DNA from: Nematocida ausubeli
Taxonomy: Eukaryota
Assembly: GCF_000738915.1 (NCBI RefSeq)
Contig: NW_026515638.1
Location: forward strand, 84,882-148,881
Direction of reading: 5' to 3'
DNA: 64,000 bases
Under the pieces are notes generated by a model. The model did no database searches. It was not told where the DNA came from and saw only the letters and a program-made list of their open reading frames with translations. This document shows, in pieces, positions 7,379-27,732 of this stretch. Made by a program: the position numbers and the translations under genes. The stretch's first letter is position 1. The number at the start of each line of letters is the position of its first letter.

Positions 7379-7445
7379 GGGATTGGTGGGAGAGAAGGGA
7401 TTGGTGGGAGAGAAGGGATTGGTGGGAGAGAAGGGATTGGTGGGA
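7379..7445 (+). repeat. 18-bp tandem repeat GGGATTGGTGGGAGAGAA, about 3.7 copies
   Basis: Exact units start at 7379, 7397 and 7415, with a partial unit at 7433. Confidence 0.95.
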
Positions 7446-7449
7446 ATAT

Positions 7450-7765
7450 ACAGTGGGAATATGTAGTAGTATGTGGATATTATTAGTAGTAGTAGTTAGA
7501 AATATATAATTAGTAGAAATATGTAGTAGTATATAGTAGTAGATGGAGATTAGTAGTAGTATTGGGTAGTAGTAGATGAAAGTATGTGGAAATATATAGT
7601 AGTAGTAGATAGAAATATGTAGTAGTATATAGTAGGTGGAAAATATGTGGAAATTAATATTAGTATATACGTAGTAGAAATTAATATTAGTATATACGTA
7701 GTAGAAATTAATATTAGTAGTAGGTGAAGATTAGTCTATTAGTATATACATAGTAGTAATTAGTG
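7450..7765 (+). repeat. AGTAGT/TAG-rich strand-asymmetric low-complexity tract
   Basis: Almost C-free on the + strand. Includes a 27-bp duplication (AAATTAATATTAGTATATACGTAGTAG). Confidence 0.85.
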
Positions 7766-8062
7766 TGAATTTATTTAAAACCTGATTATATTTAGTTATA
7801 TACGGGTATTAGTGGGATATAACCATATTCAACAGTGTTTTAATGGGTTTTAACCCTTTCCATCAATATTTAACCATAATTCACCATAATTCAACCGTTT
7901 TTAATCAAAATATAACCATACTCCATCAATATTTAACCATAATATAACCATAATGTAACGGTTTTAATCACACTCTATCAATATTCAATCATAATTCACC
8001 ACATTTTAACGGTTTTAATCATATTCCCTCTATATTCCCTCTATATTCTATCAATATTCCCT

Positions 8063-8482
8063 TTACTCTTCACTTATTTCCCCATGCACACACAATGGAT
8101 GCATATTTACATCAGTAATTGTATACGTATAACTTCCATCTATTATATTACCAGATATTTTCACAGGAATTATCCCATGTATATATCCTGTATGTCCCTG
8201 TATATAGCCATGCACTAATCCTTGCCTAATTATCTTCATAATTATAAATTCAACTGACACTTTCACATGAACCTTTGGGTCTATCCCAGATATATAACCA
8301 ATTTCATCTAATATACCAATACTATCCGTATAGCATATTACAACGCCTTTTAGTGCCTTAATATATAATCCAACGTATTTATTAAGATATTTATACGAAT
8401 ATTCTATTATATTATTTAATTGGCACGGGTATACGGGCACCCTCATTATTGTCTGTACTTTCTGGAACTGTATGCCGTGCAT
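8063..8482 (-). CDS. RNA polymerase I subunit RPA43-like (Rpb7 family)
   Basis: VPVYPCQLNN...LNKYVGLY...LKGVVICY...IDPKVHVKVSVEF matches the RPA43 N-terminal pattern. ATG at 8482. Confidence 0.6.
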   Translation of the reverse strand: MHGIQFQKVQTIMRVPVYPCQLNNIIEYSYKYLNKYVGLYIKALKGVVICYTDSIGILDEIGYISGIDPKVHVKVSVEFIIMKIIRQGLVHGYIQGHTGYIHGIIPVKISGNIIDGSYTYTITDVNMHPLCVHGEISEE

Positions 8483-8938
8483 CTCTGTAAAGAAATAAAA
8501 TTTATTCAGAGCATAAAAATGTGTTGTAATTAGTGGGGATATAAGAGAGTATAAGGGGGGACCATTGGGAAGTATATTGGGGAGTATACTGGGAGATAGT
8601 GAAAGTGTGTTATAATTGTGACTAAGCATAGTGGGAATATATTAGGAGATAGTGAAAGTGTGTTATAATTAGTAATATACTGTTATAATTAGTCATATAC
8701 TGTTATAATTAGTAATATACTGTTGTAATTGTGACTAAGTATATATAGATATATGTTTATTGAGTGGGTATAATTGATTTTACCAATATTTAATGATATT
8801 TTGCCAAATAACCAGAATACTCCCAAAAAATAACGGTATTTTCCTAAATAACCCGAATAACCCGATATAATCCGAATAAATTTCAATTGGTTTGATGTGA
8901 AACTGTGCCTATAAATATAACCAGAAACAAAACACAAA

Positions 8939-9427
8939 ATGACATGTGAGGCATATATCTCCCCGAATGTAGAGTGGTCCTTGGAGCCATCAACGTGGCT
9001 TGGTCAGACACTCTTAACAGGTACAGTTTTATTCATTCTTACACAAATATTTTCAAAACCAACAGCCTGGTCCCTTACTATTTGCTTGTACAACGTAATA
9101 ACCTTTGTCTTTTTCCATGCAATATTAGGAGACCCTTTCAAGCCGGAATATTCTGGTCTGACTTTCTGGGAGCAATTAATGATTCAGTTGAAGGGTTCTT
9201 CTGGGATGAGTTTTTTTACATTATTCCCTGTGATGTTATTCTTATGCGGTGCACGGCTGGCTGGATTTAGTAATTTCTTCTTTTTGGTGAATTTTTTGTC
9301 TTTGGTTTTGGTTGTCACCCCGAAGATTTATGTCTACGCGCTGCACTACAGGAAGACGCAGCAGGAAAAAAAGAAAAAAGTAAATGTACAAAAGAGAAAG
9401 AGGAGTGCGCAGAGAGTGGATAATTAG
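8939..9427 (+). CDS. ORM1: ORMDL/Orm1 family sphingolipid regulator
   Basis: NVEW...AWSLT...FFHAILGDPF...LTFWEQL family motifs and several TM segments. Confidence 0.9.
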   Translation: MTCEAYISPNVEWSLEPSTWLGQTLLTGTVLFILTQIFSKPTAWSLTICLYNVITFVFFHAILGDPFKPEYSGLTFWEQLMIQLKGSSGMSFFTLFPVMLFLCGARLAGFSNFFFLVNFLSLVLVVTPKIYVYALHYRKTQQEKKKKVNVQKRKRSAQRVDN

Positions 9428-9961
9428 TATTCTGGTGGTGAATTCGTGTATATAGTTAATTTTGGTTGTATTTTGTGGTTAATTTGTTGTTGGTTTATTT
9501 ATATGTGGTGTGTATGTGGTGTGTATATTGTGTATACATGGGTTAAATTGGTTATATATGACTAAATATGACTAAATATAGTGTATATATGACTAAGTCT
9601 AACTAAATATGACCAAATATAGTGTATATATGGCTAAAATTCACCAAATATGACCAAATCTGGTTAAAATTAGATATATTTCTGATTAACATATTTTCAC
9701 TGTATACTATCTATCTATATACTATCTACCTATATACTATCTACTTATATACTATCTATATACTGGTTATTTCTATTCGGGTTATATCCGGTTATTCCGG
9801 TTAAATTTGGAAAGGCGTTTTTTTATTTTCAATGGAATTTAAAAAGTTCCTTCCTATCATATGCGAAATATATAAAATTTTTAGGAAAAAAGTAAAAACG
9901 CCTTTGTCCTTTCCTAAATTATATTTTAGTGCAGGGGTATAAATCTGGTTACTAAAATGTG

Positions 9962-26075: not shown

Positions 26076-26153
26076 TGGCCTAGTTTAATAAATTCACTTA
26101 TGCTAGAATATATGTGGTGCACACGTAGCTAATGTTTATTTTAATACTATAGG

Positions 26154-26226
26154 GGTCCTATGGCCTAATGGTTAAGGCGTCGGTCTACGGAACCGAAGAG
26201 TCGGGGTTCGAGTCCCTGTAGGATCA
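26154..26226 (+). tRNA. tRNA-Arg (anticodon ACG)
   Basis: Acceptor GGTCCTA/TAGGATC, D loop TGGCCTAATGGTTAAGGC, anticodon arm TCGGT-CTACGGA-ACCGA, T loop GGTTCGAGTCC, followed by a TTTTT Pol III terminator. Confidence 0.97.
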
Positions 26227-26236
26227 TTTTTGCCCT

Positions 26237-26794
26237 TTACGGTTCTACATTCTCTGCAGAAGACTCCTTCTCCTCTGCACCTGCAAGTGCCTTTGCCTTA
26301 TAAGCTGCCTTTTCCTCTTCTGTTAGTGCCTGCCACTTCTTAGAAATCATCTGAGAAATTTCCTTCAAAGAAGGCATGGGTGCATCACCCTTCCTTTCCT
26401 CTGATATTTTCGCACTGTTCTCCCTTACGAACAGATTATATCCAGATGGCTTCCTTGGGGTAGTGCTCTTCTTGCTTCCTGCTGCCTTCTGGTCTTTATT
26501 CTGTTTTAGTACATCTTGGTACTCTTCTGTCTTCTTGTACTCCTCCAGGTCCTCTTTGTACTGCTTGAAGGCCTCTGCATACTCCTCTGAGTATTTCTTC
26601 TTTTTCTCTGGGGCTAACTCAGACCAGGCCTGGCTGAGTATCTTAGTCTGCTCCTTTACTGATAGGCCTGGCTGCAATGTCTTCCTGGCATCCCTTAAAA
26701 ACATGAAATATTCTGTTGTTGGTTTTTTTGGCTCATTTTCTCCTCTGATTTTCTTCACTTTTCTTTTAGTCCCAGCTGCAGAGTCCTTTGCCAT
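26237..26794 (-). CDS. Two-HMG-box chromatin protein (HMGB-like)
   Basis: PKKPTTEYFMFL...WSELAPEKKKKY and PRKPSGYNLFV...WQALTEEEKAAY. ATG at 26794. Confidence 0.92.
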   Translation of the reverse strand: MAKDSAAGTKRKVKKIRGENEPKKPTTEYFMFLRDARKTLQPGLSVKEQTKILSQAWSELAPEKKKKYSEEYAEAFKQYKEDLEEYKKTEEYQDVLKQNKDQKAAGSKKSTTPRKPSGYNLFVRENSAKISEERKGDAPMPSLKEISQMISKKWQALTEEEKAAYKAKALAGAEEKESSAENVEP

Positions 26795-26899
26795 GCGCAG
26801 TAAAAAAATAATCCAATAAATAGTTTGAAAATGCGCGGCAACTATTGGCGGGTACACAAGGAGACACACGGGCACCACAGGAATTGGTCAGATATCCAT

Positions 26900-27445
26900 G
26901 GGTTACTAGTGTATTGGTGTTGTATTAGTGTATTGGTGGTGTATTGTTGTTGTATTAGTGTATGATTATGGAGTGTTTAGTAGTGTAGTATATAGTGAAT
27001 ATATTTAGTCTGTAGTAGCACAATTTTAGTCTGTACCAGTAGTCTTGTAGTAGTCTATAGTAGTGTAGTAGTACATTTAGTTATATTTTAGTCTGTAGTA
27101 GTACATTTTAGTCTATAGTAGCATAGTAGTAGCATTTAGTCTATAGTAGTGTAGTAGTATAGTAGTAGTGAATTTATTTTTATATTTTAGTCTGCTGTAG
27201 TAGTAGTATACTAGTAGTATAGTAGTAGTGCATTTTAGTCTGTACTAGTGTAGTAGTATATTTATTTTTATATTTACTATGTACTAGTAGTATAGTAGTA
27301 GTATATTTTAGTCTATACTAGTAGTATTTAGTCTATAGTAGTAGTAGTATATTTATTTTTATATCTTAGTAGTATTTAGTCTATACTAGTGTACTAGTGA
27401 TATATTTATTCTATACTAGTAGTAGTATACTAGTAGTATATTTTG
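26900..27445 (+). repeat. TAGTAG/TAGT-rich low-complexity tract
   Basis: About 550 bp of tagtagtat and ttttagtct variants, with the same strand bias as 7450-7765. Confidence 0.85.
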
Positions 27446-27732
27446 ATTGGTGATTTATAACAAGAATATTCTATAGACAGAAGGAAGACGGCCTTAATAA
27501 ACTAATTAGAAAACTAATGGGAAAACTAATGAGAATAAACTAATGAGAAAGCTAATTAGAATAAACTAATTAGAATAAATATATCCCAAATATAAACATA
27601 AACATCTTCCCTCTCCCTCCCTTCCTAACATAACAACATAATAACATAATACTCTATATATCCCTGGATGATTTATTATTCATATTCTTACTGGCTGATC
27701 AATTTGCAGTTGATCCCTTGTGTAATTATACT

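What the first reader, a model, noticed from the sequence alone, without database searches (positions are those of the whole stretch)
7379..27600. A 20-kb domain of expanded, motif-built intergenic DNA: candidate microsporidian centromere region
Seen: many genes elsewhere in the window abut within 1-100 bp, and the longer spacers outside this domain lack motif arrays. Inside it most spacers are 0.3-1.1 kb mosaics of several motif classes: A (GTGGATTAAGTCTTG), B (GACTAAWTACAACAG), C (ATAACCCGAT), TTAACC/TTAACA tracts and TAGTAG tracts. The layout is roughly nested. TAG-rich tracts sit at both edges (7450-7765, 26900-27445), TTAACC tracts lie further in (7830-8030, 10700-10980, 23160-23450), and the A arrays are central. 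Housekeeping genes remain embedded. To my knowledge microsporidian centromere sequences are poorly defined. Inference: a gene-containing regional centromere or similar specialised chromatin domain.
Basis: inference. Interest (0 to 1): 0.8.

Follow-up and report, generated by a model that had tools for sequence, protein, structure and literature searches.

The report
Helix-phased motif domain, candidate microsporidian centromere
A 15-kb AT-rich stretch of a nematode-infecting microsporidian's chromosome is packed with three short DNA motifs, two of them spaced at whole turns of the helix and one written into genes, and it is likely, but not shown, to be one of this parasite's still-unlocated centromeres.

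Summary
The window is from Nematocida ausubeli. Motif A (36 of 36 copies) and B (38 of 39) lie only inside the domain; the shared-motif core is about 8.5-23.7 kb.

New here:
- A and B copies sit at multiples of about 10 bp.
- Motif C has entered coding DNA (18 copies against 0.15 expected).
- Two embedded proteins carry 121-153 inserted residues that their orthologs in other Nematocida lack.
- Contigs of three DNA runs pile about six extra A-array equivalents on the arrays, so a handful of similar loci probably exist elsewhere. That is roughly the expected chromosome number.
- A 9-base form of C coincides with an extremely high-copy repeat, possibly the telomere.

Not supported: the TAG and TTAAC tracts are not domain-specific, so the 'nested' layout is weak. 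There is no gene-free core, and other parts of the window are as AT-rich.

Best reading: a gene-containing regional centromere or pericentromere (about 50%). Rivals are non-centromeric repeat accumulation, and an origin or boundary domain. No kinetochore, Hi-C or whole-genome test was possible.

The parts
8521..23651 (.). Core domain holding the shared motif families A, B and C; AT-rich (GC 0.26-0.36 per kb)
12252..12524 (+). Motif A array 1, in the divergent spacer; a synteny break relative to L001 maps to this spacer
14981..15371 (+). Motif A array 2
16596..16874 (-). Motif A array 3 (A polarity flips between 15.4 and 16.6 kb)
17963..18212 (-). Motif A array 4
23015..23134 (-). Motif A array 5
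8660..8745 (-). Motif B array, 20-bp spacing
15874..16551 (+). Central motif B array between the converging A arrays
17695..17952 (-). Motif B array
19020..19923 (+). Longest motif B array
22775..22971 (-). Motif B array
8847..8865 (+). 9-base tandem form of motif C; its bin is 74-fold (X1) and about 250-fold (X4) over flank depth
13087..13158 (+). Motif C tandem run inside the GTPase-like gene; an in-frame insertion missing in strain protein P0081; ends in the second 9-base tandem (288-fold depth in X1)
7463..7765 (+). TAG-rich tract (real, not domain-specific in kind)
26907..27444 (+). TAG-rich tract, same strand as the left one, about 3 kb beyond the motif core
7864..8037 (+). TTAACC-type tract
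10734..10981 (+). TTAACC/TTAACA tract, 10-bp unit; lowest GC of the domain (0.20 in 250 bp)
23157..23483 (+). TTAACC/CACTAA-type tract
8063..8629 (-). Rpb7/Rpa43-like gene (weak Pfam hit; true start probably internal)
8939..9427 (+). ORMDL gene; covered by a contig of the probable RNA run X16
9962..10294 (-). Elongin C / Skp1-POZ gene
11036..12199 (-). 387-aa hypothetical gene carrying C and B copies in frame
12672..14981 (+). 769-aa highly diverged EF2/Snu114-type GTPase-like gene; 12 C copies on both strands; 121 residues absent in five orthologs
15412..15873 (+). 153-aa basic protein gene; covered by a contig of X16
16923..17576 (-). 217-aa hypothetical gene with C copies
18194..18952 (+). 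252-aa ORF (this exact sequence is not in the protein collection)
20025..22724 (+). 899-aa TPR protein; 153 residues absent in four orthologs; accelerated in this lineage
23733..26075 (+). DBP10/DDX54 helicase gene (outside the motif core)
26154..26226 (+). tRNA-Arg(ACG)
26237..26794 (-). HMG-box gene

Best explanation
The 8.5-23.7 kb stretch is an AT-rich, gene-containing domain filled with three dispersed short motif families, and it is likely the regional centromere or pericentromere of this N. ausubeli chromosome. Shown: motifs A and B are confined to it and spaced at whole helical turns; motif C has entered coding DNA without breaking frames; two embedded proteins have lineage-specific insertions; related arrays exist at other loci. 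Inferred mechanism: local duplication and conversion spread short units, and selection keeps spacings of 20, 31, 41-43 and 51-52 bp because they put protein-binding sites, or AA/TT steps, on one face of the helix. That would position centromeric nucleosomes over the spacers, most plausibly around the B array at 15.9-16.5 kb between the converging A arrays. Low recombination there would explain the AT drift, tolerated insertions and inversions. Motif C would recruit a Myb-type or telomere-type factor (a recalled analogy, untested).
For: 1. Confinement and nulls.
2. Phasing: 45 successive A spacings fit a 10.25-bp period, mean cosine 0.845 against a maximum of 0.46 in 5000 random sets. AA/TT autocorrelation peaks at 10, 20, 30, 40 and 50 bp in 11 domain spacers and not in 10 outside spacers. 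B period is 10.0. 10-bp WW periodicity is proposed to stabilise centromeric nucleosomes (PMC5844345, passages).
3. Few copies genome-wide: contig depth over the A arrays is 5.5-6.1 array-equivalents above flank depth in 3 of 3 DNA runs, whereas the window alone predicts at most 1.14-fold in those bins. Four or five contigs leave single A positions into foreign sequence, and two such ends tested are not in the window. The scaffold is 682 kb, and a long-read N. parisii assembly has seven contigs (10.64898/2026.01.30.702766, passages).
4. Molecular evolution: TPR branch 1.06 vs 0.31 for N. parisii, relative-rate counts 126:57, 116:61 and 76:43, 153 inserted residues. A control gene 27 kb away gives 0.36 vs 0.25, p 0.06-0.52 and no insertions.
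5. Three gene-order breaks against relative L001 fall in domain spacers, none in four junctions to the left.
6. Precedents: one low-GC region of about 25 kb on 16 of 17 A. locustae chromosomes (PMC7643970); Malassezia centromeres with an enriched 12-bp motif and active genes (PMC7025860).
Against: No kinetochore or Hi-C data, and no whole genome was held. There is no gene-free core: the longest spacer is 1072 bp and 61% of 7379-27600 is coding, unlike the gene-free A. locustae regions. GC at 33-37 kb and 59-62 kb is as low. The A polarity flip rests on five arrays (about 1 in 8 by chance), and B and C show none. Phased spacings are not independent, since arrays grow by duplication. The depth figure is a sum over contigs that the tool says is no copy number; B gives inconsistent values (6.8, 2.9, 1.6); and only 1-19,900 was laid. 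The GTPase-like gene is equally fast in its N. sp. AWRm79 ortholog (71:69). Only two domain genes and one control gene were compared. Orthologs lack the insertions, so the domain would have to be young or newly remodelled. L001 has long simple-repeat spacers without shared motifs.
Confidence: 0.5

Rival explanations
1. A non-centromeric, recombination-poor or slippage-prone patch. Nematocida spacers generally grow G/C-skewed minisatellites; here nearby spacers were homogenised by ectopic conversion, and 10-bp multiples persist only through generic nucleosome preference.
For: Simple-repeat, skewed spacers occur in L001 and at 32689-33596. Recent 43-64-bp copies link arrays (16233-16295 with 19507-19570, 95%). 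The C-array insertion is polymorphic within the species. Frames stay open and two embedded genes are covered by probable RNA contigs.
Against: L001 has 0 twelve-mers shared by three or more of 11 spacers, against 136 among 22 window spacers. The same families recur at a few other loci. C appears on both strands and in all frames, at several sites without a length change against orthologs, which neutral slippage explains poorly.
Confidence: 0.25
2. A replication-origin, terminus or chromatin-boundary domain built from clustered, phased sites for general DNA-binding factors. C resembles Reb1/Tbf1-type sites, and A and B contain homeodomain-like cores (both recalled, not tested).
For: C also occurs singly in outside spacers (5 spacer copies), often near gene ends. 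Phasing is what cooperative binding needs. Spacer skew is G-left/C-right in 11 of 11 domain spacers.
Against: A arrays ignore gene orientation: they lie in divergent, tandem and convergent spacers, so they are not promoter elements. Cumulative GC skew shows no switch at the domain. An origin does not explain the protein insertions.
Confidence: 0.15
3. Interstitial telomere-like chromatin: motif C is the species' telomere repeat seeded at breaks by telomerase or held by a telomere-binding protein, making a fragile, rearranging domain. This can coexist with a centromere role.
For: The only two 9-base tandem C sites in the window are the only two bins with 74- to 300-fold depth in X1 and X4, which implies a tandem repeat of the order of tens of kb. 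Its reverse strand is T-rich and ends in GGG. Synteny breaks lie nearby.
Against: The spikes are weak in X9 (3- and 9-fold). The runs hold 97-164 Mb of contigs, so a host repeat is not excluded. Reported microsporidian telomeres are TTAGG, TAGG or TTAG. Gene content is conserved across Nematocida, so this is not a fusion scar. A and B are unexplained.
Confidence: 0.08
4. Assembly artefact.
For: The contig graph shatters at the domain's left edge.
Against: Eight listed X1 pieces match with 0 differences, X4 and X9 cover the stretch, and other strains encode the same motif-derived peptides.
Confidence: 0.02

Closest known systems
Antonospora locustae ultra-low-GC regions, proposed centromeres (PMC7643970; passages read)
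   Same: Microsporidian; internal AT-rich domain of 15-25 kb; few per genome.
   Different: Those are about 20% GC and hold no genes. This one is 26-36% GC, mostly coding and built from defined shared motifs.
Malassezia short regional centromeres (PMC7025860; abstract and passages read)
   Same: Compact genome; AT trough; enriched short motif that is not exclusive to the centromere; active genes inside the kinetochore-bound region.
   Different: Those have a core under 1 kb and a 3-5 kb domain, one 12-bp motif without orientation bias. Here there are three phased families over 15 kb, oriented arrays, and motifs inside ORFs.
Microsporidia sp. MB candidate regional centromeres (PMC13174016; abstract and passages read)
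   Same: One distinct internal domain per chromosome is proposed.
   Different: Those are GC-rich, gene-sparse, methylated LINE/Ty3 clusters. No retroelement domain was found here.
Short-unit satellite centromeres such as the Drosophila 5- and 10-mers (PMC5844345; passages read)
   Same: Units in multiples of about 10 bp with AA/TT periodicity.
   Different: Those are long, gene-free tandem arrays. Here the arrays are 0.1-0.9 kb, degenerate and interleaved with genes.
Inverted-repeat centromeres of Komagataella phaffii (PMC5010909; search listing only)
   Same: A arrays face each other around a central B array.
   Different: No long inverted repeat: the longest arms are 100 nt at 76%.

Membership tests
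Regional centromere | CENP-A or kinetochore occupancy | not testable with these tools
   No ChIP or Hi-C data reachable; CENP-A in Nematocida was not checked (search 103 listed no paper naming it).
Regional centromere | One per chromosome | tested here: inconclusive
   One domain in 64 kb; about 5.5-6.1 extra A-array equivalents in three runs, near the seven contigs of N. parisii; positions unknown.
Regional centromere | GC minimum of the chromosome | tested here: inconclusive
   Longest low-GC run in the window, but 33-37 and 59-62 kb are as low; the rest of the scaffold was not seen.
Regional centromere | Gene-poor core | tested here: not met
   Longest spacer 1072 bp; 12,339 of 20,222 bp coding. 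Malassezia shows this is not universal.
Regional centromere | Suppressed recombination, rapid sequence change | tested here: inconclusive
   TPR gene accelerated with insertions; GTPase-like gene has insertions but no lineage-specific rate; one control gene. Recombination not measured.
A. locustae-type ultra-low-GC region | About 20% GC, about 25 kb, no coding genes | tested here: not met
   GC 0.26-0.36 per kb; nine ORFs between 8.0 and 22.7 kb.
Microsporidia MB-type candidate centromere | LINE/Ty3 cluster, GC-rich | tested here: not met
   No retroelement family among 37 ORFs scanned; domain is AT-rich.
Microsporidia MB-type candidate centromere | CpG methylation | not testable with these tools
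   Needs native long reads.
Satellite centromere | 10-bp periodic units | tested here: met
Satellite centromere | Long homogeneous tandem array | tested here: not met
   Arrays under 1 kb and mostly 70-95% alike.
Inverted-repeat centromere | Long, near-identical inverted arms around a core | tested here: not met
   Longest arms 100 nt, 76%.
Interstitial telomeric sequence | Motif equals the species' telomere repeat | tested here: inconclusive
   Very high-copy match to the 9-base C form in two of three DNA runs; no Nematocida telomere motif found in searches or the supplements read.

The most novel reading that the evidence does not exclude
N. ausubeli has young, sequence-built centromeres laid over essential genes: one domain per chromosome made of helically phased motif arrays, where selection on the DNA, including a copy of the telomere repeat, has been strong enough to rewrite and lengthen the embedded proteins.
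Probability: 0.3. Interest if true: 0.85.

Novelty: new variant of a known kind. Interest (0 to 1): 0.65.

Why it matters
No microsporidian centromere has been located by experiment in the papers read. They propose subtelomeric, holocentric, low-GC or retroelement sites (PMC10158259, PMC12449221, PMC7643970, PMC13174016). Motifs A and B give a one-line genome scan and exact ChIP and FISH targets in a parasite that grows in C. elegans. If centromeric, this shows how a genome with almost no spare DNA builds a centromere among genes and at a cost to its proteins. If not, motif invasion of coding DNA in a reduced genome still needs an explanation.

Tried and rejected
- No whole genome was held, so the per-chromosome scan could not be run.
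- A doubled motif A pattern found 0 matches in metagenome contigs.
- Earlier scan notes: nothing on this genome or its relatives; the word look-ups returned unrelated findings.
- No RNA holder was listed for the stretch. Parts without cover in the probable RNA run X16 are not used as evidence.
- Rfam found only the tRNA, so no known ncRNA explains the spacers.
- The Atlas gave no usable feature hit for the 769-aa protein and only generic TPR hits for the 899-aa protein. The TPR model had no structural match at E 0.001 or better, so a kinetochore or cohesin role for it is not shown.
- L001 could not be extended, so the relative's DNA around the TPR and GTPase-like genes was not seen. Of the 80 loci, five were compared with window proteins and only L001 was syntenic.
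- The 252-aa ORF does not match the L001 gene next to ORMDL.
- Promoter-element reading of A rejected: arrays ignore gene orientation.
- 'Nested edges' rejected as a defining trait.
- The supplement of PMC3514677, which lists five N. parisii promoter motifs, could not be read; motif C may be among them. bioRxiv supplements were not seen.
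Full report
Source. Proteins of the window cluster with named Nematocida ausubeli proteins, on a 682-kb scaffold. No whole genome was held, so everything below rests on the window, orthologous proteins, one syntenic metagenome locus and contigs of public runs.

Observation. Motif A has 36 of 36 copies inside 7379-27600, B 38 of 39 and C 35 of 46. 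Block shuffles give means of 0.1, 0.16 and 1.4. Spacers are longer inside (median 617 vs 184 bp, p 0.025). The simple tracts are not specific: TAGTAG 69 inside and 56 outside, TTAACA 15 and 22. The shared-motif core is about 8.5-23.7 kb; 23.7-26.8 kb is ordinary. GC per kb is 0.26-0.36 in the core, but 33-37 and 59-62 kb are as low.

Anatomy. A forms five arrays, two on the + strand (12.25 and 14.98 kb) and three on the - strand (16.6, 17.96 and 23.0 kb). They lie in divergent, tandem and convergent spacers alike, so they do not follow gene direction. The flip brackets a B array at 15.9-16.5 kb, but five arrays give such a pattern about 1 time in 8 by chance, and the longest inverted arms are only 100 nt at 76%. 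Of 45 successive A spacings, 16 are 20 bp, 13 are 31 bp and 6 are 30 bp; the best period is 10.25 bp, mean cosine 0.845 against at most 0.46 in 5000 random sets. The spacings are not independent, since arrays grow by duplication. B has period 10.0. AA/TT autocorrelation peaks every 10 bp in 11 domain spacers and not in 10 outside spacers.

Motifs inside genes. The 8-base core of C occurs 18 times in domain coding DNA against 0.15 expected from codon shuffles; outside it is 2 against 0.27. Copies lie on both strands and in all frames. Twelve are in the 769-aa gene, whose model matches EF2/Snu114 structures (E 1e-12, TM only 0.2-0.3). Five orthologs lack 121 of its residues, and a 22-aa C-array insertion is missing in another N. 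ausubeli protein, P0081, so turnover is ongoing. The 899-aa TPR protein has 153 residues that four orthologs lack, and a branch of 1.06 against 0.31 for N. parisii; a control gene at 50-52 kb has no insertion and 0.36 against 0.25. Against this, the GTPase-like gene is as fast in N. sp. AWRm79 (71:69). Only these three genes were tested.

Relatives. Accession neighbours and shared contig lengths show the gene neighbourhood is kept in several Nematocida. L001, a Nematocida-like contig at 47% GC, is syntenic for nine genes by tblastn, and one more gene is weakly similar (E 0.003). It differs by inversions whose three visible breaks fall in domain spacers. Its spacers are also 0.27-0.7 kb (one 1.7 kb), with private minisatellites and G-left/C-right skew in 10 of 11, but it has no A, B or C copy and no 12-mer shared by three spacers, against 136 in the window. 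Long, skewed, simple-repeat spacers are therefore a genus trait; the shared families are the special feature.

Runs. Contigs of four runs were laid on 1-19,900. In X1, which may be the source of this DNA, one 20.7-kb contig ends at 7407 and the domain breaks into 1-2-kb pieces with no differences, so the sequence is real. Depth over the A arrays is 6.0, 5.5 and 6.1 array-equivalents above flank in X1, X4 and X9; the window alone predicts at most 1.14-fold in those bins. B gives 6.8, 2.9 and 1.6. Four or five contigs leave single A positions into other sequence, and two ends tested are absent from the window. The tool warns that summed depth is no copy number. Read loosely, it points to a handful of similar loci rather than one or dozens. 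A long-read N. parisii assembly has seven contigs. The two bins with 74- to 300-fold depth in X1 and X4 are exactly the two places with a 9-base tandem form of C. This suggests a very high-copy repeat, possibly the telomere, but it is weak in X9 and a host origin is open. The probable RNA run X16 has contigs that match the bounds of ORMDL and the 153-aa gene.

Mechanism. I infer a gene-containing regional centromere or pericentromere (0.5): phased motifs would position centromeric nucleosomes or their factors, and low recombination would let AT-rich insertions accumulate even in genes. Rivals are non-centromeric repeat accumulation (0.25), an origin or boundary domain (0.15), telomere-like interstitial chromatin (0.08) and artefact (0.02). 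The Reb1/Tbf1 and homeodomain resemblances of the motifs are recalled and untested.

Literature. Passages were read from PMC13174016, PMC10158259, PMC3514677, PMC10393165, PMC7643970, PMC12449221, PMC11592040, PMC5844345, PMC7025860 and two preprints; supplements only for PMC10767889 and PMC10100673; PMC5010909 as a listing. Searches listed no description of Nematocida centromeres, telomeres or these motifs among the rows shown. The unread supplement of PMC3514677 lists promoter motifs that may include C.

Verdict. The feature is real and richer than reported. It works like a small regional centromere by several indirect signs, fails the gene-free-core test of the A. locustae type, and cannot be filed as a centromere without kinetochore or chromosome-wide data. 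New variant of a known kind; interest 0.65.

Noticed in passing
window 9809-9912: Hairpin with 19-nt arms (84% complementary), RNA folding z -3.0, no Rfam match, between convergent genes. The X1 contig path breaks here although the window holds no second copy, so it may be a repeated small element or an ncRNA.
   Followed up: partly
window 8847-8865 and 13135-13155: 9-base tandem form of motif C matches an extremely high-copy repeat in two DNA runs; candidate non-canonical N. ausubeli telomere repeat, host origin not excluded.
   Followed up: partly
window 16375-16391: A contig of depth 1542 in X1 (45-fold; 66 in X4) returns to this B copy with three letters between, suggesting a homogeneous 20-bp B satellite somewhere in the genome.
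   Followed up: no
window 12672-14981: Extremely diverged EF2/Snu114-like GTPase, 21-43% identical among Nematocida orthologs and without a Pfam hit; possibly Efl1/Ria1 (recalled) or a Snu114 relic.
   Followed up: partly
window 11036-26075: In fragmented assemblies of other N. ausubeli strains the domain genes lie mostly on 1.5-9 kb contigs, sometimes as two separate copies, while most flanking genes lie on 34-37 kb contigs.
   Followed up: no
window 32689-33596: Outside spacer with GATA-type, CT-rich and CTA-type simple tracts but no A or B motif.
   Followed up: partly
window 62332-64000: Long + strand frame running off the window; resembles a Nematocida large-gene-family protein (recalled). 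The listed 173-aa - strand ORF is probably its shadow.
   Followed up: no
L001 9568-19934: Nematocida-like metagenome contig, syntenic, with private minisatellites in most spacers and two inversions relative to the window.
   Followed up: yes
window 7374-7445: Near-perfect 18-bp G-rich repeat, four copies, just upstream of the FG-nucleoporin gene; it marks where the X1 contig ends.
   Followed up: no
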